Made by a program: the position numbers and the translations under genes. 64,000 nt of DNA, from NCBI RefSeq assembly GCF_044647545.1, contig NZ_CP172818.1, one strand, 5' to 3'. The stretch is from Escherichia coli. Its GTDB lineage: Bacteria; Pseudomonadota; Gammaproteobacteria; Enterobacterales; Enterobacteriaceae. Below are positions 5,719 through 53,900 of this stretch, piece by piece (position 1 is the stretch's first letter; each line of letters opens with the position of its first letter). Below the pieces are notes generated by a model that did not search any database, was not told the origin of the DNA, and saw only the letters and a program-made list of their open reading frames with translations.

Positions 5719-8700
5719 TTTTTCGCCTCCTGAACCTGATCGCGACCTTCATCATCCAGCCAGTTAACGTTCTTCATCTTGCGGATCATGATGAATTCGT
5801 CGCGGTTCGAGCCGACGGTGCCGTAGTAGTTAAAGCCCCAGGCCAGCTGCGCGTAACCGCCAATCATATGCGTTGGTTTCGGACAAACGCGGGTGACCGA
5901 GTTATGAATGCCGCCGCGCATGCCAGTTACTTCCGAACCAGGAATATTCATAATGCGTTCCTGGGCGTGATACATCATGGTCATGCCCGGCGGTACACGT
6001 TGGCTGACCACCGCGCGGGCCGTCAGCGCGCCGTTGGCGTTAAACACTTCCACCCAGTCGTTATCGACAATGGTCAGTTCACGGGCATCGGTTTCGCTGA
6101 TCCAGACAATTGGTCCACCGCGAGAGAGCGTCAGCATTAGCAGGTTTTCACTGTAGGTTGAGTGAATGCCCCATTTCTGGTGCGGCGTCAGGAAGTTAAG
6201 TGCTTTTTCCGGGAAGCCGTTTGGCGGTATCTGGCGCATTTCACTGACGCTACGGGTGTCGATAGGCGGGCGATAAGCCACCAGGCTTTCACCAAAAGCA
6301 CGCATCCACGGATGATCCTGATAGAGCTGCTGGCGTCCCGACAGCGTGCGCCACGGAATTAACTCATGAACGTTGGTGTATCCCGCGTTATAGGAAACGT
6401 GATCGCTTTCCAGACCGGACCATGTGGGGCTGGAGATAATTTTACGTGGCTGCGCCTGAATATCGCGAAAGCGAATCTTCTCGTCCTCTTTGTGCAGCGC
6501 CAGATGGGTATGTTCGCGTCCGGTGATCTCGCCCAGCGCCTGCCACGCTTTGACTGCAACATGACCGTTGGTTTCCGGTGCCAGCGCCAGAATCACTTCT
6601 GATGCGTCAATGGCGGTGTCAATCAGCGGACGCCCCTGTGCCGGGCCTTCACGCTTGGTGTAGTTGAGTTTGCCGAGGAAATCGATTTCATCCTGGGTAT
6701 TCCACGAAATCCCTTTACCGCCGTTGCCAAGTTTGTCCATCAATGGCCCGAGCGAGGTAAAGCGTTCATAGGTAGCAGGGTAGTCGCGTTCCACCGCCAC
6801 AATATTGGGCGCGGTTTTACCCGGGATCAGATCGCATTCGCCTTTGCGCCAGTCGAGCACTTCACACGGCTGGGAGAGTTCTGCCGGAGAGTCATGTAGC
6901 AGTGGTTGTAATACCACGTCGGTTTCTTTGCCAAGATGACCCACGCACAGTTGCGAAAATGCTTTGGCGATACCTTTGTAGATTTCCCAGTCGCTGCGTG
7001 ATTCCCACGCCGGATCGACCGCCGCAGAAAGCGGATGAATAAACGGATGCATATCCGAGGTGTTCATATCGTCTTTTTCGTACCAGGTGGCGGTGGGCAG
7101 AACGATATCGGAGAACAGGCAGGTACTGGACATACGGAAGTCGAGCGTCACCAGCAGGTCGAGCTTGCCTTCAATCGCCGCAGTTTGCCACTCGACTTCT
7201 TCCGGTTTGATCCCGTCGCTGGCACCGAGTTCCTCGCCCTGAATCCCGCTTTCGGTCCCCAGCAGATACTTCTGCATATACTCGTGGCCTTTGCCGGAGG
7301 AACCAAGCAGGTTAGAACGCCAGACAAACAAATTACGCGGATGATTGCTGCCGCTATCGGGTTGTTCGCAGGCCATACGTAAATCGCCCGATTTCAGCGC
7401 CTGGGCGGTGAATTCTGTGGGAGATAATCCGGCCTTGTCGGCTTCAGCTTTAATCCCGAGCGGATTACGCCCCAACTGCGGCGCAGAAGGTAGCCAGCCC
7501 ATACGTTCGGCGCGAACGTTGAAATCAATCAGATGACCGCTGTACTTACTGGCATCGGCCAGCGGTGAAAGTAACTCCTGAGCAGAGACTTTTTCATAGC
7601 GCCATTGGCTGGAATGATTGTAGAAAAACGAGGTGCTGTTCATCTGGCGCGGTGGTCGGTTCCAGTCGAGCGCAAAGGCCAGTGGCAACCAGCCGGTTTG
7701 CGGGCGCAGTTTTTCCTGACCGACATAGTGTGCCCAGCCGCCACCGCTTTGCCCGACACAACCGCAGAAGATCAGCATGTTGATCATCCCACGGTAATTC
7801 ATGTCCATGTGGTACCAGTGGTTAACACCTGCGCCGAGGATAATCATCGAGCGCCCATGCGTTTTATGGGCAGTATCGGCAAATTCACGAGCGATGGTTT
7901 CAATATACTGGCGCGGCACACCGGTAATTTGCTCACCCCAGGCTGGGGTGTACGGTTTGATTTCAGCGTAATCTTTCGCGCTGTTTTCATCTTCCAGCCC
8001 GCGATCGAGGCCATAATTCGCCAGTACCAAATCATAAACGCTGACCACCGGACAGGTGTTGCCATCGGCTAATGTCAGGTTTTTAACGGGCAATTGGCGC
8101 ACCAGGACCGGATTGTGTTTTACGCTACGAAAATGCGGATTTTCAATGCCGCCAAAGTAGGGGAAGGCCACGCCTGCAACGGCATCATGTTGACCGAGCA
8201 GAGTTAACGACAATTCGGTTTCCGTACCGGCGGCAATGGATTCCAGATTCCATTTGCCTTTTTCTCCCCAGCGAAAACCAATCGAACCGTTCGGCACCAC
8301 CAGTTCACCTGCGGTATTAACCGCCACGGTTTTCCACTGCGGATTATTGCTTTCGCCCAGTCCATCCACCAGGTCAGATGCGCGGACCATGCGCCCGGGA
8401 ACGTAGCTGCCGTCGTCGCGAGGTTCCAGCATTACCAGCATCGGCATGTCGCTGTAGCGGCGGCAGTAGTTGATAAAATAATCGCTGGGATTATCGAGAT
8501 GAAACTCTTTTAAAATGACATGGCCCATTGCCATTGCCAGGGCACTATCAGTGCCTTGTTTTGGTGCCAGCCACTGGTCGCACAATTTGGCCACTTCAGA
8601 GTAGTCAGGGGTAATGGCGATGGTTTTAGTGCCTTTGTAGCGTACTTCGGTAAAGAAATGGGCGTCCGGCGTACGTGTCTGCGGTACGTTAGACCCCCAG

Positions 8701-38665: not shown

Positions 38666-38995
38666 TGTTATTTATCGTGAGATATTGCGTGAATAATATT
38701 TTTTCATTGAAAAACAATATAGTAGGGAGCTATTGGGTGGTGGCAAGGTGTTTTATGCTGTTATTTTTATGTGCATTCTGTGCCTCCTGAATTATCACGT
38801 AAAAATCAGACCTTAAAATATCATTATTAGTACGCGGTTATTTACTTTGAACGCATTTATAAAATTATTACATAAAAATAGCGAATATTGCTAAAATCCC
38901 CGCCAACGATGTGTTGACGGGGCTGTGATTATTTTGGCAATAATACCCCGGCATAAGTATTTACCGGATGAGAAAGATATTGTTTAACGCGTTAA

Positions 38996-39379
<384 letters not shown>

Positions 39380-41203
39380 AAACCGAGTAATAATGGGATA
39401 TAAGGTAATGGTGAAAAAAGGATAAACGAAAAATAAGAAAGTCTATGTATGAATACGCGCTGGAACCCATGCGGTGGCCTGCCTGCAATTTGCTAAATGT
39501 TGGCTTCAGTTAACTTTATCGTTGAGTAGATAATGTAATTGTCTTGGATAGAAAAATGTGATGTAAATGTCTATATTAAAAAGATTTTAGGATGAAAATA
39601 AACTTGATGATTAAAAAAGGCTAAAAGTAAACTAGAATGAAAATTACCAATGTAACATATAAAAATGGTGAATAAACTGATAAGGTGGGAGGAAGAAAAA
39701 TAATGATAGGAATGTGCTATTCATAAATAATATCGGGTCGGTGAGAATTGATAAATTATATGTATCCGATAGATAAAAAATGATAAACTAAGAGGGTAAT
39801 GGAATTAGTATAATGAGGTAAGTAAAATAATTGATATGATCAGAGTGATGGCTGCTATCATGAAAAGTAGTTACTGAATTATGGTCTGTAAGGTATGTAG
39901 CTCTGGGGGCATAAATTAAATAAAAGAAACTATGTTCTGAGAAAAGAAATTATTATTAATAAAATGCATTGTGTAATGATAAAAATAGTTTTTGGCCTGC
40001 ATAGCGTTGTTGATAGTGAATAATTTAGGAAAAAATAGGCCAGCAGAGTGGGTTCCCTGGTCGCGCTGTCTTTGTTTGATGAACTCTTTCAGAGTGCTGT
40101 CATCATCATTTTTCATGAGTAAACTGCGACTCTTTTCAAGGTAAAAACAGTAATCAATTTGAGATTAATTGAAAACTGGAGGGCTGGCTCCTGCATTCTG
40201 CTCCTGCCGGGCTTTTTGATTTGTTAATTTTGATTTATTGTAGGGTGGCTGGCTGCTGTGATAAACTCTTTAAGCTTGCATCTTTTAACGACCTGCGGAT
40301 TGGGGGGCAAGGTTATTTTTGCTTAGATCGTGTTGTAGATAACTGATGTTTTCTACTGTATAGAAAGGAATAATCGTTTTACGTATAGAATTGGCTTAAG
40401 TCTGTGTTGGGGTTATGCGGGTAATTTGACTGATGGGAAAAATTTGGGTAATTTCAGAATGGAATATTTCTGTAAACAGTGAGAATAAGAGGTTATCAGG
40501 TAGATTTTTATGTGGCTGCTTTTTTATCTGCAACAGGGCAGCAAGGAAACGCCATCAGCTTAAGGTCTTTGGAATGCTGATATGGCTGATAAGAGCTGTA
40601 GGTAAAATCATTGGGAAATAGCTGTATAATTACGGGTGAAGTCACAATAAAATTGGGGTGTGAGTGCGGATAGGTCTGACTTTAAGCCTGCCGAGCGGCA
40701 AGGACATCGATAACGCACATTATGGAGGTAAAGAGAATAATTGTATGATACTGTCCGTCAGTTGTCGAGAATGCGTAACCTGATAAGAATAGGAAGCGTA
40801 GTAGTTACTTACTCAGATAATGCTTTGATTGATCAGGTGAGGATTATTTGGCAGGTCGGAGCTTTAAGCAGGTAGCTTGGCTGGTGTGTGGCGATAGTGT
40901 TGGTGTGCGTGGGGTTGAAGTTGGGTGCCTTGGGGTGTGTTGGTGGGGGTGTCTTGGAAGTAAGAGAGAAAAAGTGGGTGAGTGAAGTAGTAAAAGAGAA
41001 GAGAAGAAGGGAAAAAGTAAAGGTTAAGTAATTGAAAAAATGAATAAAATGAGAAAATGGAATTGAGATAAAATAATATGAAAGGTTATGAAATGATAAA
41101 TATGTGATGAATGTATTATTTATTAATAAATATATCGCCTAAAAACAACGCGGGGCAGGGAATGACTGCATTTAATTTTTAGTAGGGTGCGTGGTGACTC
41201 TCG
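39380..41203. other. ORF-free block with strong strand asymmetry (C-depleted, A/G/T-rich on the plus strand); nature unknown
   Basis: No ORF of 70 aa or more on either strand in about 1.8 kb; positions 40981-41100 contain no C at all. Confidence 0.9.
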
Positions 41204-46601: not shown

Positions 46602-47132
46602 TTATTGAAATTCAAGGGTAAAGGTTGCCGAAGCGCTCACCAGTCCAGGATTGACGGACTTCTGAGTTGACTTCAAACGAGCGGAGTAAGGCAAAATATT
46701 GTTCTGTTCTGGTACCAATGGGATCCACTGCATCCCGGCATGAAGGTCATTCAATTTCACCGGACGCATATTTCCGTCCAGTATTTCTATACCCAAACCG
46801 GAGGCCGTATTGCTTCCTTCATCCAGTTTCAACAGAGTATTATTTTCTGCATCCTCAATACCGTTAAATGCAACCCGAACTCCCGTTGTCCCTTTGCTGC
46901 ATTCACTTAATGTAATCTGAAAAGGGACGGCTGGACTTGTGCTACCGGTCGTTGGAAATTGTCTGGCACTGTTTTTTTGGAGATCTACGGTAAAATTAAG
47001 CGAATCCGATGAGACTGTGCAGCCATAATCGAGGACGCGCCCGCTAATTTTAATAACGCTATCTGCGGATAAAGCAGAATAGGTGGTTAACCCCAGACAT
47101 AAACCGAGGAAAATAATGTTATTGTATTTCAT
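46602..47132 (-). CDS. ydeS: fimbrial minor subunit (FimF-like)
   Basis: 176-aa ORF with a signal peptide. Confidence 0.85.
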   Translation of the reverse strand: MKYNNIIFLGLCLGLTTYSALSADSVIKISGRVLDYGCTVSSDSLNFTVDLQKNSARQFPTTGSTSPAVPFQITLSECSKGTTGVRVAFNGIEDAENNTLLKLDEGSNTASGLGIEILDGNMRPVKLNDLHAGMQWIPLVPEQNNILPYSARLKSTQKSVNPGLVSASATFTLEFQ

Positions 47133-47145
47133 AATCTATTGTTCC

Positions 47146-48294
47146 TTAGCGACAGATTGCTGTCTGCTGGTTCAGTAAGGTACCAGGAGAAACTTCAGGA
47201 AGCTTGTACTCGACAATACAGTTTGAGTTTTTATCTTTGCCCCATGAAACCTGTAATTTCCCTGACTGTGGAAGTCCAGTCAGATAAACCTGACCGTTTT
47301 CCGCGACAATGCTGCCATTTTTATTCTGTCCATGTGTGACAATTGCACCGAATGGAACGCTCTTATTACCGTACTTCAACGTCATTAATACTTTCCCGCC
47401 GATTTGTGCATTAAATGTTGCTCTGGCAATAGCACCGTGAGTTGGGATGACAGTGACAACGGTTTCATCCAGTTCAACATTATCTGCAAGGGAATTCGCG
47501 TTAAGAGCGACACGATTTTCTCTATATTCTGTCGCAAATGGTAATATGGCATAGCCACGCCAGTCGGTATGAATACCGGTCTGGTTCTCTATTTTGACAT
47601 TATCAGCGCCAGGAGCCTTAACCAGAACCATTGTGTCGCCCAGCGGCTGTCCAAAGGTGATGCCATCAGCATGAGCAATAATGCCACCACTCATTCCGTA
47701 ATAAATCTGGCTGCTGTCACCACTCCGACTGTAACCGATATTCGTATTACCGTAAGCTCCACGATAATTAAGAGAACTGTAACCACTGGTGCCAGACGAT
47801 GTATTACCCCCGTGGGTGTTACCGACCTGAACACTATAATTCAGGTTATTATCCGGCAGCAGAGTGCCATAAACTCCCGATAGATTGGTCATGCCGCCTT
47901 TCAAATCGTTTGACATACTGTAACTGGCGTTTGAGTTACGAAATGTCGACTGACTGTCTGTACGCATCCAATGACTGAAGGGAACATTAAGCGTAAAAGC
48001 AAGTAAATGATCCCGATCGTTTTGCCATATATTATTGGAATAGCTGTAATTCAGCGAAGTCGTAATATCACTAAACGGCACATTTAATCCAAATGATATT
48101 TGCTGGTCGCTGCGTGACGTGTTCCAGTAACTTTGGCGACTGGCACTGAAAAATGTCGTACCGTAATTTCCAAGCTGCTGAGAGATGCTTATTTGTTCCT
48201 GACCACGCTTACTGTAGAACAGATTAAAATAATCAATAAATTGTGTCTGCTCATTGCTGTCTCCGGTAGGAGGCTTGACGGTGTAACCACTCAT
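47146..48294 (-). pseudogene. ydeT: C-terminal fragment of a fimbrial usher (FimD-like), N-terminal half missing
   Basis: 382-aa ORF beginning at an internal Met with no signal peptide; ushers are typically over 800 aa. Confidence 0.8.
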
Positions 48295-48546
48295 TCGACT
48301 GTAGGCACTGTCGGATAAGTTATAAAAACCTTGCGTAGAATAGCGATATCCTGCGACCTGGATATTGGTTCCACAACAAGTTTATTGCAGCACTTGTTGA
48401 AGAGAGTATTTGCAAAGACATTTTATGTCGCTAAATAACATGACGATTTCATTATGCATGTTATTTATAAACCGTGACTAAACAGAATATTATTGCGAAC
48501 AAGGGAAGTGTCAGGAAAGGTCAAGAGCGACCAATGGCTTATATGG

Positions 48547-48975
48547 CTATAAATCATTAGCTATAGTTAATGTTTGCCTGGTGTAACTAACACGGAATTG
48601 CTCTAAACAGATAAGTGCAGGGTTTATTAAAGCTGACCGACAGACTTTCTTAACCTGGTAATATCTCTCAGGTGACTCTCCAAACATCCGCGAATATTCC
48701 CGACAGAAATGGGATAAGCTTTCGTAACCGACAGCATAGGCTGCAGTGGTGACATCGTAATGTTCATTCAGTATCAGTCGCCTGGCTTCATTGAGGCGTA
48801 GCCATTTCTGATACCGGAGTGGACTCATTCCCGCAAGCTGTCTGAAGTGTTGATGGAAAGGGGGGCGTTCATTTGCACGCGGTTTGCCAGCCTGACTCTT
48901 CAACGCAGGGAAGATGCGGCAAACGGCAAACCTGCATACCAGCCAGCCTATATCCGGTATGCACAGGCCAATCAT
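48547..48975 (-). pseudogene. yneL: AraC-family regulator fragment (HTH region only)
   Basis: Short ORF carrying only an AraC-type HTH segment (LAGMSPLRYQKWLRLNEARRLI...). Confidence 0.65.
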
Positions 48976-49159
48976 GAAAGAGGAGAGGCTTTATGTTCTG
49001 GAACCCTGAAGTAATAACGACGACCGGAAAATCGCTTCGCATCACTCAAATCCAATTTAACATAATATACATTATGCGCACCAACATAAACCAAGGAAGA
49101 ATCCAGTCGTTGGCGGTCATGATTGTCCTGCTCATTAACAACGACCAAAACCCCATATC

Positions 49160-50482
49160 TTACTTAATACCGTATTCTCGGCTTAACCGGTCGTGCAACC
49201 TCAACACATTGGTTTCAACTGCCGTCACCACGTTCTCCGGAAAATCTGTCGGTAATGAAGTCTTCACGTTATCCAGTGCTGCTGGAATCATTCTGGCAAA
49301 GTCACTCAGGATTTCATGCATCTGCACTTCCGGGAATCTCAGCACCTTTGCTGTCGCCAAAAAATGTCGCGGATAAATTTTATCGATTGCCGTTTTTTTG
49401 CCTTTGGATGCGTTAAGCCCCATTGCCAGTTTGAGATCGCTGATGTGTATTCCCGTACCGCCAAGGACCGGAAATGCTGAAATGATGTCGTAAAATGGCG
49501 TGAGTCGATAACTGCCGCCAGCCTGAATAAATACGGAGAAGTTTTTTGCATGACCGTCCGTTGCGCCAATCAACCACTGGAAGACCTGGAATTTCATAAA
49601 ATCATAGCGATCTTTCAGCGCCTCGCTGGACCCCATCAAAAAAGCCATGATCCGCGCGATGCCTGGGCCTCCATCTGATTCATATTTCACCGATGAAGGT
49701 AAACCGAATGTCTGACACATATCCTCCTGTGGCAAGCGAAGTAAAACCGTTCGCTCAGCATTCCAACGCCTGTCAAAACGTTCGACCGCTAACGCGCGCA
49801 CATTTCCCGCTTTAATGATTTCTGCGTCCGGAACATTCAACCCAAGTTCTTTCGCCAGCAGCAGACAGTAATACTCATTATCAACGCTTTGGCTGAGATC
49901 GAGCGTCGCATTGGGCTGCCTGATTTCGCCAATCGGTAATTTAATGATGTGCGTCGTCGGCGTTATTCCTTTCGGAATGCACCAGTCATTGCCTATTCTG
50001 AGCAGTGCTGTCTTCTCCTGTGCGCCAGCAACCGAGATGCGAAAGTCATTTTCTTCTCTAATCATGCCTAGCGGGATATCTGCTTTATAAGCCGTTAATA
50101 CTTCTTCAAGTCTGGCTTCAGTAAGCTTTTCCCATGCCATTATCGGATGCGTTACGGTTTCGTCTTCGGGTATTAACGTCACGGCACCAACGCTGTCTCG
50201 CCCTATTTCTGACAATAAATCAAACGGTTGTCTGGATTTGGCATGATAACGTTTAACGATCCGGTCACGTACAATCGGGCTATCGGGTAACAGGTTATCG
50301 AAGAAGTTAAATACGGCATCAGAGGTGATATTCCCCCTCTGCAATGGCAGCGAAAGTGACAACGGTCTGGCATAACGGCTTGCTAACCACTCCGGTGCAT
50401 ACTTAAAGGTGTGCGCGCCGTTGGCTAACTTCGTTAACTCGCCTACCCGCTGGTTGTTCATCCAAGTGACAAGTTTAGGCAT
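49160..50482 (-). CDS. hipA: HipA serine/threonine kinase toxin
   Basis: Trimmed to MPKLVTWMNNQRVGEL (ATG at 50482-50480), 440 aa; overlaps the hipB stop by 1 nt. Confidence 0.95.
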   Translation of the reverse strand: MPKLVTWMNNQRVGELTKLANGAHTFKYAPEWLASRYARPLSLSLPLQRGNITSDAVFNFFDNLLPDSPIVRDRIVKRYHAKSRQPFDLLSEIGRDSVGAVTLIPEDETVTHPIMAWEKLTEARLEEVLTAYKADIPLGMIREENDFRISVAGAQEKTALLRIGNDWCIPKGITPTTHIIKLPIGEIRQPNATLDLSQSVDNEYYCLLLAKELGLNVPDAEIIKAGNVRALAVERFDRRWNAERTVLLRLPQEDMCQTFGLPSSVKYESDGGPGIARIMAFLMGSSEALKDRYDFMKFQVFQWLIGATDGHAKNFSVFIQAGGSYRLTPFYDIISAFPVLGGTGIHISDLKLAMGLNASKGKKTAIDKIYPRHFLATAKVLRFPEVQMHEILSDFARMIPAALDNVKTSLPTDFPENVVTAVETNVLRLHDRLSREYGIK

Positions 50483-50748
50483 TACCACTCCAGATTTTGC
50501 TGTTCTGTTGATTCTGGCGAGGCATTTTTCGCGTCGCATAGCGTCATTGAGAGTTCAAGCGACTGTAAAATCTTAAAAAATGTCGTGAGCGTGGTATTGT
50601 CAGGGTTGTTTTCGAAATTGGAAATCGTCGCCTGCTTAATACCAATTTTTTTCGCCAGCTCGCTCTGCGTCCAGCCATTTTGCTGGCGAACCAGTTTCAT
50701 TGCATTCGCCAATTGCGTTGGGCTATAGATCTTCTGAAAGCTCATCAT
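50482..50748 (-). CDS. hipB: HipB antitoxin (Cro/C1-type HTH)
   Basis: Trimmed to MMSFQKIYSPTQLANAMKLVRQQNGWTQSELAKKIG, 88 aa. Confidence 0.95.
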   Translation of the reverse strand: MMSFQKIYSPTQLANAMKLVRQQNGWTQSELAKKIGIKQATISNFENNPDNTTLTTFFKILQSLELSMTLCDAKNASPESTEQQNLEW

Positions 50749-50769
50749 GTCATACGTCCACAGCAAGTT

Positions 50770-50882
50770 TATCCGCTTAAGGGGATATTATAAGTTTTAT
50801 CCTTTAGTGAGGATAAGTCAATCTGGAAACACATCTTATCCGCTCTACGGGATAAACGCTGCGATATCCGCGATCGCGGATA
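50770..50882. promoter_or_regulatory. four HipB operators (TATCC-N8-GGATA) in the hipBA promoter
   Basis: Exact TATCC-N8-GGATA matches at 50770-50787, 50798-50815, 50837-50854 and 50865-50882. Confidence 0.9.
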
Positions 50883-50957
50883 AAAAGGAGGATTTAAAAG
50901 TCGTTTGAAGTCGGCAATATTAAGCCGCATGCATCTTCGACATGCGGCTTATACGGT

Positions 50958-53900
50958 TTACCAGCTATATTTCACACCCAGCATGCCCTGAGTATCGCTA
51001 TAGCCTTTATCACCTAGTTGCACACCGACATTCCCCCACAGGCTAAGGTTGTTATTTACTTTCGCCTCAACCCCGGTACGTACTTCACCGAGATTACGCG
51101 CACCATCACGGCTTACGGTTTGACCATTCATCTTCACGGCGTAGACTTTGCTGTTGTTGATCCAGTTCGCTTCAATGTAAGGCTGGAACTCACGCTGTTT
51201 ACCATTGTCACGCTGGTGTAGTCGTCAGCAGAACGGTTATCGGAACTGACGCTGTTATCAAACCAGTTATACAGCGCCCAGCTGTCAACATAAGCGCCGG
51301 TCTTATTCGCATCGTTCTGATACCAGGTCGCGTACAGTCCTGCGCTGTAACCGCTGATGCGCCCATCCGATTTATAACCCACATGATTACTCTGAGTATT
51401 ACTGTGCTGATTGGCATAGCCTGCCATGACGCCGAGATGCCAGCGATCCTGCGCGTTGCTACTCCACTGCGCCAAATCGCCGCCCTTGCCATATTAATGG
51501 CAGAGTCGGAACCGAAAGCAATTTCCCCCCCACGATATCCGTCGTACCCTGATACGCCGCGGAATCGTTGTTAAGAGTCAGGATCCCGGTACCCAGTTTT
51601 GTCACATCACCGCTACCGCTGATACTGTGCGTCATCGCCCAGCTACGCTCAGTGGAGATGGTGAGCAGGCCATTATTGATAACGGAAGCATCACCCAGGT
51701 TTTTCTGCTCGTTGACGCTGAGCGCGCTGCCTGTATCAATGTTGAATTGCCCCACAAAGCGGCTATTATCGCCATCCAGCTCTACATCTGTCCTGGCGGT
51801 TGCGCTCACGATACCCTTCCCGCTTATGCCATTGCGCAGTTCGCCAGTCACGTTTTTTAGCGTTAACAGACCGTTATTGGCAATATTTCCGCTGCCTAAC
51901 CCCTGCGTATTATCGAGGCTGACTTCCGCATTTGGGCTAATGCTGGTTAACGCATTGTAGCGTGCATTAAGCCCCTCGATAGCCAGCGTTCCCCCTGTAA
52001 CATTCAGGTTTCCGCCACCTGTCAGTTCACCCTGACTGATCCCACCTTTATTTACCGTCAGCGCCCCCTCTTTGAACAAAACAGTCGAACCCATCTGCCC
52101 GGTGAATGTCTCTACCGTCTGCGTCGATCCATTAAGATCGACGATGGCCGCGTTGCTGATGTTCAGTTCCCGGGTGTTGCCAAGTGCACCATCCGCATCG
52201 GTACGTAATGTCCCCATCTGAACGTAGGTTGCCCCCTGATAGTCGTTCTGAGCGTTGGAAAGCGAAACCTGTCGCACCGTATTGATTGCCAGATCCCCTT
52301 CACCACCGATTTTTGCCGACATATCGGCCGTTGCGCCATAGGCTCCGCCATGTTCGGCTAACGTCAGCTTTTGCCCTCCATGGATGTTCAGCGCTTTCAG
52401 CCCATAGTTAACGTACAAACCATCACCTGGTGCGGTCGTGAGGCGGAATCCATAATCACCCTCGGCGACCACCGTTCCGTTTTGCGCAATGTGTAACGTT
52501 TTGTCCGCTTCCACCTCGTCGCCCTGTAAATCACGTAACGTTAATGAGCCACCCGACCCAATAACCGTTTGCGCCTTCACCAGTTGAACGCCGACATGGC
52601 TATCATCGTGTTCCAGCAAATTGAGCGTCGTCAGAGGGTTATTCGCCATGGGATCATTCCACGGTTTAGGCACGTCGATAAGCACGTCGCCCGTCCCGTT
52701 TACCTTATAGTTACGGCCTTTCCAGGTGTAGTCACTCGCGCCGACAACCAGCGTATCGACGCTGATATATCCCTCTGCAAGCGTCGCAGCAGGAATATCC
52801 GTATCGAAAATGAGCGTACCGCCATTCATGGCCAGTCCACCAATGGATTGCTCTCCCACGTTTACCGATGTGGTATTTTCAATGTCAGACTGCAACATCG
52901 CGTGAGTAAGCGCAGCGGTGTTGTCGCGTTCCAGAGTGAAGGTACTGTCTTTCAGTTGGGCAACACCGGCGAATTCAGTCCCTGTTGCATGGGTAAAGCC
53001 AAACATCTTGTCGGAGGATGACAGCTGCACTCGCATCAAGCCATCGCCTTTGAGCGCATTGGTCAGCGTGTAATCTCCTGCGCTGTTCGTTGATGCGAGA
53101 ATGTCGAGCGTACCGGGGCTTGCAATGGTGACTTCACTCGAACCCATGCCTGTTACCCCATCTGCCGTATGTGACGCAATAGTCAGGAGGCCGTCATTGA
53201 CCAGCGTTTTACCGCTATAAGTATTCCCTGCATTGAACACCGTATGGCCTGCATCATGCATCACTTTTCCGTCTTTATCGTCACCCGTAATCAGCATATC
53301 GACCTGGTAGCCGGCATCACTGTTATTGGTATGATTAAAGACAAAAACGCCTTCGCCAAGACCAAACTCCACTTTCGTCGCATTGGTAATAAACCCGGCA
53401 TCTGCCGCTACCTCACCGTGAGCAGCACCAATGTTTAGCGTTCCTACAGCAGGCTCAAAAACACCTAAGTAAACTTCTCCACCTTCGACATTCAGCGTGC
53501 CGTTATTCGTCAGGGTTAACGTACCTGTGCCAGTCGTCCCTACGTTCATATTGAATGTTTCAAGAAGAGAGTTCTGCCCATCCACCCGCACGTCGCCCTT
53601 ACTTTTGTCATTCAGAGCTATCTGTGTATCACGCGCTTTAACTATACCTCCGGTGGTAATATTCAGTTCACCCGTGCCTAATACACCGACCTGTAGCAAT
53701 TGGGCGTTAGTAGATGACGTTTTTAAATTCCAGAGACTATGCGTTGAAATATTAACTATCCCCTTACCGGAGGCATTTCCTCCGATAAATCCATAGCCCG
53801 TTGAATTAAGGGTGGCACCATTACTGACATTTACGATGCCGCTACCAAAATTACCGACATTGATACCTACAGTATCGAACGATGATGTCGCATCCATCAG

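What the first reader, a model, noticed from the sequence alone, without database searches (positions are those of the whole stretch)
49160..50882. hipBA toxin-antitoxin module with four intact operators
hipB and hipA overlap by 1 nt (hipB stop 50482-50484, hipA start 50482-50480). Four exact TATCC-N8-GGATA operators lie upstream at 50770-50787, 50798-50815, 50837-50854 and 50865-50882. This is the classic persistence locus in apparently complete form.
Basis: partly seen in the sequence, partly recalled or inferred. Interest (0 to 1): 0.4.

Follow-up and report, generated by a model that had tools for sequence, protein, structure and literature searches.

The report
Intact E. coli hipBA toxin-antitoxin locus
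This is the ordinary, textbook hipBA persistence (toxin-antitoxin) operon of Escherichia coli, intact and wild type, with its four known repressor-binding sites; nothing about it is new.

Summary
hipA is 49160..50482 (-), 440 aa. hipB is 50482..50748 (-), 88 aa. They overlap by 1 nt (TAATG). Four exact TATCC-N8-GGATA palindromes lie at 50770, 50798, 50837 and 50865; 5 occur in the window against 0.06 expected. Window 49213..50897, which holds most of hipA, all of hipB and all four operators, is 100% identical to E. coli K-12 MG1655. HipB equals the crystallised K-12 protein. HipA differs only by S424T, G431D and S439I, at naturally polymorphic C-terminal positions. G22, P86, D88, S150, K181, D291, D309 and D332 are wild type, so this is not a hipA7-type high-persister allele. 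Three side notes. The K-12-type core sits in a background about 3% diverged from K-12, and the closest complete RefSeq relatives (IMT16316-like) have deleted exactly this segment. Natural de novo assemblies support both junctions, so the mosaic is most likely real recombination. A 13-nt block that gives K-12 an IHF-consensus-like site upstream of the operators is absent here, which is a common polymorphism. The source assembly contains obvious junk (poly-G runs) about 10 kb away.

The parts
49160..50482 (-). hipA: Ser/Thr kinase toxin, 440 aa plus stop
   Evidence: phmmer against PDB gives 2wiu_A at E=9e-298, identical except S424T, G431D and S439I. Pfam hits are HipA_C (176 bits) and Couple_hipA (96 bits). 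G22, P86, D88, S150, K181, D291, D309, H311, N314 and D332 are all present.
50482..50748 (-). hipB: Xre/Cro-type HTH antitoxin and repressor, 88 aa plus stop. The stop TAA overlaps the hipA ATG by 1 nt (TAATG).
   Evidence: 100% identical to PDB 2wiu_B/3dnv/3hzi HipB. The NCBIfam equivalog NF007271 (HipB) scores 183.5 bits against a cutoff of 79. The sequence includes the C-terminal tail 73-88 (AKNASPESTEQQNLEW), shown to be the Lon degron (PMC3376134).
50488..50491 (-). GGAG Shine-Dalgarno for hipA, 5 nt before its ATG, inside the hipB 3' end
   Evidence: Read directly from the sequence. Its function is inferred.
50770..50787 (.). HipB operator, hipB-proximal: TATCCGCTTAAGGGGATA. Its last base overlaps the -10 hexamer.
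   Evidence: Exact match; identical to K-12.
50787..50792 (-). Perfect -10 hexamer TATAAT on the hipB sense strand
   Evidence: Read from the sequence. It lies between the two proximal operators. It is assigned by position and consensus, not by transcript mapping here.
50798..50815 (.). HipB operator 2: TATCCTTTAGTGAGGATA. It covers the position where a -35 element at 16-18 nt spacing would lie.
   Evidence: Exact match; layout.
50816..50821 (-). TTGACT hexamer abutting operator 2, 23 nt upstream of TATAAT. This spacing is non-canonical, so its role as the -35 is uncertain.
   Evidence: The strict sigma-70 scan found no site with 16-18 nt spacing.
50837..50854 (.). HipB operator 3: TATCCGCTCTACGGGATA
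   Evidence: Exact match.
50865..50882 (.). HipB operator 4, distal: TATCCGCGATCGCGGATA
   Evidence: Exact match. Centre-to-centre spacings are 28, 39 and 28 bp.
50898..50899 (.). Site of a 13-nt deletion relative to K-12. In K-12 the block creates CATCAACGCCTTA on the sense strand, which resembles the IHF consensus.
   Evidence: Alignments. The exact window junction is present in many RefSeq E. coli genomes.
50921..50951 (-). GC-rich hairpin directly after the stop of the upstream autotransporter gene. It is a likely terminator that insulates hipBA from read-through.
   Evidence: RNA fold gives -18.9 kcal/mol, z = -3.6, and 0 of 200 shuffles fold as well. There is no clean U-tract, so its function is inferred.

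Best explanation
This is the chromosomal hipBA type II toxin-antitoxin operon of Escherichia coli, intact and wild type. hipB and hipA are co-transcribed from a promoter whose perfect -10 (TATAAT, 50792..50787) lies between the two hipB-proximal operators. They are translationally coupled through the TAATG overlap. HipB dimers (Xre/Cro-type HTH) bind cooperatively to the four TATCC-N8-GGATA palindromes, with HipA as co-repressor, and shut off the operon. In the HipA-HipB-DNA assemblies HipA is held inactive. When HipB is degraded by Lon through its disordered C-terminal tail, free HipA phosphorylates glutamyl-tRNA synthetase GltX at Ser239. Uncharged tRNA-Glu then triggers RelA and (p)ppGpp, and the cell arrests growth and becomes multidrug tolerant. 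HipA switches itself off by autophosphorylating Ser150. Shown here: gene structure, operators, sequence identity to the characterised K-12 proteins and DNA, and conservation of every residue known to matter. Inferred from the literature and not tested here: expression, kinase activity and the phenotype. The core of the locus is a K-12-type (phylogroup A) allele inside a non-A genome. This is best explained by past homologous recombination, and sister strains have since deleted the segment.
For: Four exact operators, against 0.06 expected per window. TAATG overlap. 1685 nt identical to MG1655 over 49213-50897. RefSeq annotates the same stretch as hipA/hipB in more than 4,500 genomes. HipB is 88/88 and HipA 437/440 identical to the crystallised proteins. 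Pfam HipA_C + Couple_hipA and HTH_3, and the NCBIfam HipB equivalog above its cutoff. G22, P86, D88, S150, K181, D291, D309, H311, N314 and D332 are present and invariant in 14 natural HipA sequences, whereas 424, 431 and 439 vary. The exact HipA protein occurs in two GenBank chromosomes and five independent metagenome/Logan contigs, next to an 88-aa HTH gene. Mechanism from the literature: operators, cooperativity and co-repression (PMC3920265, PMC3376134); Lon degron (PMC3376134); GltX Ser239, Ser150 and hipA7/P86L/D88N (PMC7758455).
Against: Nothing contradicts the assignment. Several caveats apply. The strict sigma-70 scan reports no promoter, because the TTGACT hexamer is 23 nt from TATAAT and a -35 at canonical spacing would be weak (TTATCC). 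The 13-nt IHF-consensus-like block of K-12 is missing. None of 5,426 complete RefSeq E. coli genomes has this exact combination of flanks and core; the best full-length match is 98.2%. The source assembly has junk sequence at 38990-41059. A hipBA deletion has no phenotype in K-12 (PMC8725577), so physiological importance is modest.
Confidence: 0.93

Rival explanations
1. The hipBA core (about 49221-50827) is not native to the sequenced strain. On this view it was introduced into the assembly from K-12-type DNA, through reference-assisted gap filling or contaminating lab-strain reads. The real strain would then carry the 1.6-kb deletion seen in its closest complete relatives.
For: The K-12-identical run 49213-50897 almost coincides with the segment missing in IMT16316 (49221-50827), and the rest of the window is 99.4-100% IMT16316-like. 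No record with the IMT-like downstream flank at >=99% extended into hipA. The window contains poly-G runs and a read-error-like stretch. The two GenBank chromosomes that share the arrangement contain many Ns.
Against: The Ns in CP092815/CP092703 fall at CCWGG motifs and homopolymers, not at K-12 variant sites. That indicates de novo nanopore assemblies, whose reads would span hipBA. Both junctions exist independently. The K-12-type core joined to the window-type hipA tail is seen in de novo contigs L008 and L011. The K-12-type operator stub joined to the 13-nt-deleted upstream region is seen in IMT16316 itself, at informative sites 50858 and 50862 relative to 2014C-3075. Other deletions relative to K-12 (13, 232 and 785 nt) are not filled in. 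The window's private differences are not K-12 alleles.
Confidence: 0.06
2. The locus is a high-persistence (hipA7-like or clinical gain-of-function) allele rather than wild type.
For: HipA is not identical to K-12; it has three substitutions.
Against: G22, D291, P86 and D88 are wild type. The three changes (S424T, G431D, S439I) lie in the extreme C-terminus, away from the N-terminal dimer interface where the known high-persister mutations map (PMC7758455). They sit at positions that vary among natural HipA proteins, for example R431 in strain 2014C-3075.
Confidence: 0.02
3. The locus is structurally intact but regulated differently from K-12, because the upstream IHF-consensus-like block is deleted.
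For: K-12 has CATCAACGCCTTA, 12 of 13 matches to WATCAANNNNTTR (consensus quoted from general knowledge), 15 nt upstream of the distal operator. The window lacks it. [quoted passage not shown]
Against: I could not verify that the block is the published IHF site, because Black et al. 1994 and Schumacher et al. 2015 are not held. The deletion allele is common in natural E. coli, including strains with intact hipBA such as 2014C-3075. All four operators and the -10 are unchanged.
Confidence: 0.15

Closest known systems
E. coli K-12 hipBA (b1507/b1508; HipA-HipB-DNA structures 3DNV, 3HZI, 4YG7)
   Same: Gene order, 1-nt overlap, HipB 100% identical, HipA 99.3% identical, and all four operators and their 28/39/28-bp spacing identical. 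The DNA is identical over 1685 nt. The genomic neighbours are also the same: the ECSE_1600/yneO autotransporter upstream, and the yneL-like HTH pseudogene and truncated ydeT usher downstream.
   Different: HipA has S424T, G431D and S439I. The last 52 nt of hipA and everything downstream are a different allele, with 6 differences in 52 nt and then strong divergence. There is a 13-nt deletion just upstream of the distal operator.
hipA7 high-persister allele (G22S, D291A) and clinical P86L/D88N variants
   Same: Same gene.
   Different: All four positions are wild type here.
hipBA-deleted locus of IMT16316-like E. coli (NZ_CP023815.1)
   Same: The flanks are 99.4-99.9% identical. The hipA 3' remnant is the same, as are the two distal operators and the 13-nt upstream deletion.
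   Different: IMT16316 lacks 49221-50827: the promoter, the two proximal operators, hipB and codons 1 to about 420 of hipA. The window has them.
Split HipBST systems (HipS/HipT; PDB 7vkb, 8ezr) and YjjJ/HipH
   Same: Distant homology of the kinase core (E about 1e-7).
   Different: HipA here is a single 440-aa chain with its own N-terminal Couple_hipA domain. The YjjJ equivalog scores 27 bits against a cutoff of 401.

Membership tests
HipBA type II toxin-antitoxin system (E. coli K-12 type) | Toxin is a full-length HipA kinase (N-terminal Couple_hipA domain plus HipA_C kinase domain) | tested here: met
   Pfam PF13657 at 95.8 bits and PF07804 at 176.4 bits, both above their cutoffs. 437/440 identity to PDB HipA.
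HipBA type II toxin-antitoxin system (E. coli K-12 type) | Catalytic and regulatory residues intact (K181, D309, H311, N314, D332; autophosphorylation site S150) | tested here: met
   All are present and invariant among 14 natural HipA sequences. The role of S150 is from PMC7758455; the roles of the other residues are from my knowledge of the HipA structures.
HipBA type II toxin-antitoxin system (E. coli K-12 type) | Antitoxin is an Xre/Cro-type HTH HipB with a disordered C-terminal Lon degron ending in W88 | tested here: met
   88/88 identical to 2wiu_B. NCBIfam NF007271 scores 183.5 bits against a cutoff of 79. Degron from PMC3376134.
HipBA type II toxin-antitoxin system (E. coli K-12 type) | Operon order is antitoxin then toxin, with overlapping stop and start codons | tested here: met
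   TAATG at 50484..50480.
HipBA type II toxin-antitoxin system (E. coli K-12 type) | Four TATCC-N8-GGATA operators in the promoter region | tested here: met
   Four exact matches within 113 bp directly upstream of hipB. The consensus is from PMC3376134 and PMC3920265.
HipBA type II toxin-antitoxin system (E. coli K-12 type) | HipA phosphorylates GltX and arrests growth; HipB neutralises it and represses the operon | not testable with these tools
   Inferred from near-identity to the characterised proteins.
hipA7-type high-persistence allele | G22S and D291A (or P86L / D88N) | tested here: not met
   G22, D291, P86 and D88 are all wild type.
HipBST tripartite system | Kinase split into HipS (N-terminal-like) and HipT (C-terminal-like) | tested here: not met
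   A single 440-aa ORF carries both domains.

The most novel reading that the evidence does not exclude
The hipBA cassette behaves as a discrete unit of exchange and loss within E. coli. Here a phylogroup-A (K-12-identical) core, with breakpoints inside the last ~20 codons of hipA and inside or next to the outermost operator, sits in a genome about 3% diverged from K-12. Sister strains have since deleted almost exactly that segment, leaving two orphan operators. If this is general, it would point to recurrent recombination and deletion focused on the module's boundaries.
Probability: 0.4. Interest if true: 0.2.

Novelty: already known. Interest (0 to 1): 0.08.

Why it matters
It matters little. 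hipBA is the first-described persistence locus and is present intact in about 84% of complete E. coli genomes. The useful outcome is negative: this copy is wild type, not a hipA7-like high-persister allele, and needs no further attention. The presence/absence polymorphism and allele mosaicism around hipBA are minor population-genetic observations.

Tried and rejected
(1) The strict sigma-70 and terminator scan of 48800-51100 found no promoter, and the one terminator-like site is inside hipA on the wrong strand. I therefore read the promoter by hand.

(2) An Rfam scan of 47000-53000 at E<=1 found nothing.

(3) The RNA fold downstream of hipA (49040-49165) is no better than shuffles (z = -0.84), so no clear intrinsic terminator was identified for the operon.

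(4) Attempts to read Schumacher 2009, Schumacher 2015 and Black 1994 failed because they are not held. Operator numbering O1-O4, the mapped transcription start and the published IHF site position therefore could not be verified.

(5) I considered that the K-12-identical core is a K-12-templated assembly artefact. The N positions in CP092815/CP092703 track CCWGG motifs and homopolymers rather than K-12 variants, and the window's private differences are not K-12 alleles. I largely rejected this reading.

(6) I considered the fifth palindrome at 48347 as an extra HipB site. It lies in usher coding sequence 2.4 kb away, and one extra match is within chance for a genome-scale view, so I did not pursue it.

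Full report
**Observation**

On the minus strand, 50484..50480 reads TAATG. The hipB stop (TAA, 50484..50482) and the hipA start (ATG, 50482..50480) therefore share one base. hipA runs 50482..49160 (440 codons plus TAA). hipB runs 50748..50482 (88 codons plus TAA).

An exact search for TATCC-N8-GGATA returns the four stated sites (50770, 50798, 50837, 50865) and one more at 48347. The expected number is 0.06 per 64-kb window, and no shuffle out of 100 gave more than one. The 459-aa ORF in the mechanical ORF list (49160..50539) is only an in-frame upstream extension. The 440-aa form is the one crystallised and annotated.

**What it is**

The 2-kb stretch matches hipA and hipB annotations in 5,421 of 5,426 complete E. 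coli genomes. Against MG1655 the window is identical at every base from 49213 to 50897. That covers hipA codons 1 to about 423, all of hipB, the promoter and all four operators.

HipB is 88/88 identical to the HipB of PDB 2wiu/3dnv/3hzi. HipA is 437/440 identical to PDB HipA, differing only at S424T, G431D and S439I. Pfam finds Couple_hipA and HipA_C in the toxin and HTH_3 in the antitoxin. NCBIfam's HipB equivalog scores 183.5 bits against a cutoff of 79.

The clinical high-persister positions P86 and D88 are also wild type. So are the autophosphorylation site S150 and the active-site residues K181, D309, H311, N314 and D332. In an alignment of 14 natural HipA proteins all of these are invariant, whereas positions 424, 431 and 439 vary; strain 2014C-3075, for example, has R431. 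The exact HipA sequence is on record in two GenBank chromosomes and five independent metagenome or Logan contigs, each time after an 88-aa HTH gene.

**Regulatory region**

Read on the hipB sense strand, the order is as follows:
- distal operator (50882..50865)
- 10 bp
- operator (50854..50837)
- 21 bp ending in TTGACT (50821..50816)
- operator (50815..50798)
- AAACT
- TATAAT (50792..50787), whose last T is the first base of the proximal operator (50787..50770)
- 21 nt
- ATG of hipB

Centre-to-centre spacings are 28, 39 and 28 bp. TTGACT is 23 nt from TATAAT, which is why the strict scanner reports no promoter. At canonical spacing the -35 would fall inside the second operator. Either way, the two proximal operators cover the core promoter, as expected for a repressor. 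A GGAG lies 5 nt before the hipA ATG. A strong hairpin (50951..50921, -18.9 kcal/mol, z = -3.6) directly follows the stop of the upstream autotransporter gene. I could not read the primary papers on the mapped start site and operator numbering, so those assignments rest on the sequence.

**Mechanism**

The mechanism comes from the literature and is applied here by near-identity. HipB binds the four operators cooperatively, and HipA acts as co-repressor (PMC3920265, PMC3376134). HipB's disordered residues 73-88 are a Lon degron, protected while HipB is bound to HipA or DNA (PMC3376134). Free HipA phosphorylates GltX Ser239, which triggers RelA-dependent (p)ppGpp synthesis and persistence. Ser150 autophosphorylation inactivates HipA. 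G22S/D291A, P86L and D88N weaken the inactivating HipA dimer (PMC7758455). Every sequence element these steps need is present. None of the activities was or could be tested here.

**Provenance and mosaicism (outside the original finding)**

The rest of the window is not K-12-like. It is 96.3-97.5% identical to MG1655, and the longest other perfect run is 368 nt. It is 99.4-100% identical to E. coli IMT16316 and relatives.

IMT16316 lacks window 49221..50827. It keeps only the last 61 nt of hipA and the two distal operators. No complete RefSeq genome combines these flanks with hipBA; the best full-length match is 98.2%. That raised the possibility that the K-12-identical core is an assembly fill-in, especially because the window contains poly-G runs and a 72%-identity, heavily gapped copy of ydeM/ydeN at 38990-41059.

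The evidence argues against a fill-in:
- The two GenBank chromosomes that share the arrangement (CP092815.1, CP092703.1) carry Ns at CCWGG motifs and homopolymers. That is typical of masked nanopore errors in de novo assemblies, and the Ns are not at K-12 variant sites.
- De novo contigs L008 and L011 show the same junction between a K-12-identical core and the window-type hipA tail.
- IMT16316's operator stub agrees with K-12 and the window at the two sites (50858, 50862) where the nearest intact relative, 2014C-3075, differs.
- Other deletions relative to K-12 are not filled in.
- The window's private differences are not K-12 alleles.

The likeliest history is this. A phylogroup-A-type hipBA core was present in this lineage through recombination, with breakpoints near 49191-49212 and 50863-50897. 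Part of the lineage then lost it through a 1.6-kb deletion. About a quarter of RefSeq genomes carry a core 100% identical to K-12, and the others are 96.4-98.3% identical.

**The 13-nt indel**

K-12 has 13 extra bases between window positions 50898 and 50899. On the sense strand they create CATCAACGCCTTA, a 12/13 match to the IHF consensus WATCAANNNNTTR (consensus quoted from general knowledge). [quoted passage not shown] The window, IMT16316 and 2014C-3075 all lack the block. The exact window junction occurs in several hundred complete genomes, so it is a common polymorphism.

**Fifth palindrome**

The site at 48347-48364 lies in the remnant of the ydeT usher pseudogene. It is conserved in K-12 and falls inside the intact usher gene of 2014C-3075. 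HipB-type palindromes upstream of 33 other genes have been reported (PMC3920263, citing Lin et al. 2013). One isolated match in coding sequence 2.4 kb away is not evidence of function.

**Verdict**

This is an already known, wild-type hipBA locus of low interest.

Noticed in passing
window 38990-41059: Long poly-G runs (about 39000-39400) are followed by a 72%-identity copy of ydeM/ydeN with 142 gaps. K-12 and IMT16316 have about 10 kb here (pqqL-yddB-yddA-ydeM-ydeN). It looks like raw-read or technical junk incorporated into the source assembly, not biology.
   Followed up: partly
window 49213-50897 versus flanks: The hipBA core is 100% identical to K-12 over 1685 nt, in a window otherwise about 3% diverged from K-12 (next longest perfect run 368 nt). 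The closest intact relative with the same upstream allele (2014C-3075) differs at 45 core sites. This implies an inter-lineage recombination mosaic, with breakpoints in the hipA 3' end and at the distal operator.
   Followed up: yes
L002 (E. coli IMT16316) 7485-7488, equivalent to window 49221-50827: The closest complete RefSeq relatives carry a 1.6-kb deletion that removes the hip promoter, the two proximal operators, hipB and most of hipA. It leaves two orphan operators and a 61-nt hipA 3' remnant. About 16% of complete E. coli genomes lack a full-length core.
   Followed up: partly
window 50898/50899: A 13-nt deletion relative to K-12 removes an IHF-consensus-like block (CATCAACGCCTTA on the hipB sense strand) 15 nt upstream of the distal operator. 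It is shared by IMT16316, 2014C-3075 and many other genomes.
   Followed up: partly
window 48347-48364: A fifth exact TATCC-N8-GGATA (TATCCTGCGACCTGGATA) lies in the ydeT usher pseudogene remnant. It is conserved in K-12 and lies inside the intact usher CDS of 2014C-3075. It is probably coincidental.
   Followed up: partly
window 50958-55361 and beyond: The upstream ECSE_1600-family (yneO/ydeK-like) autotransporter lacks 232 nt and 785 nt relative to K-12, and its reading frame breaks near 51459-51485. It is a pseudogene here, as in K-12 and IMT16316, whereas some metagenome contigs (L008, L009) encode an intact 1806-aa protein.
   Followed up: no
window 48372: The ydeT usher is truncated at the same junction as in K-12, although the flanking sequence is IMT16316-like. 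IMT16316 itself has about 4 kb more here: chaperone, usher 5' part, and fimbrial subunit fragments interrupted by IS1.
   Followed up: no
L005/L006 (CP092815.1, CP092703.1): These GenBank chromosomes, the only complete records found with the same arrangement, contain scattered Ns at CCWGG (Dcm) motifs and homopolymers. This is consistent with masked nanopore errors.
   Followed up: yes
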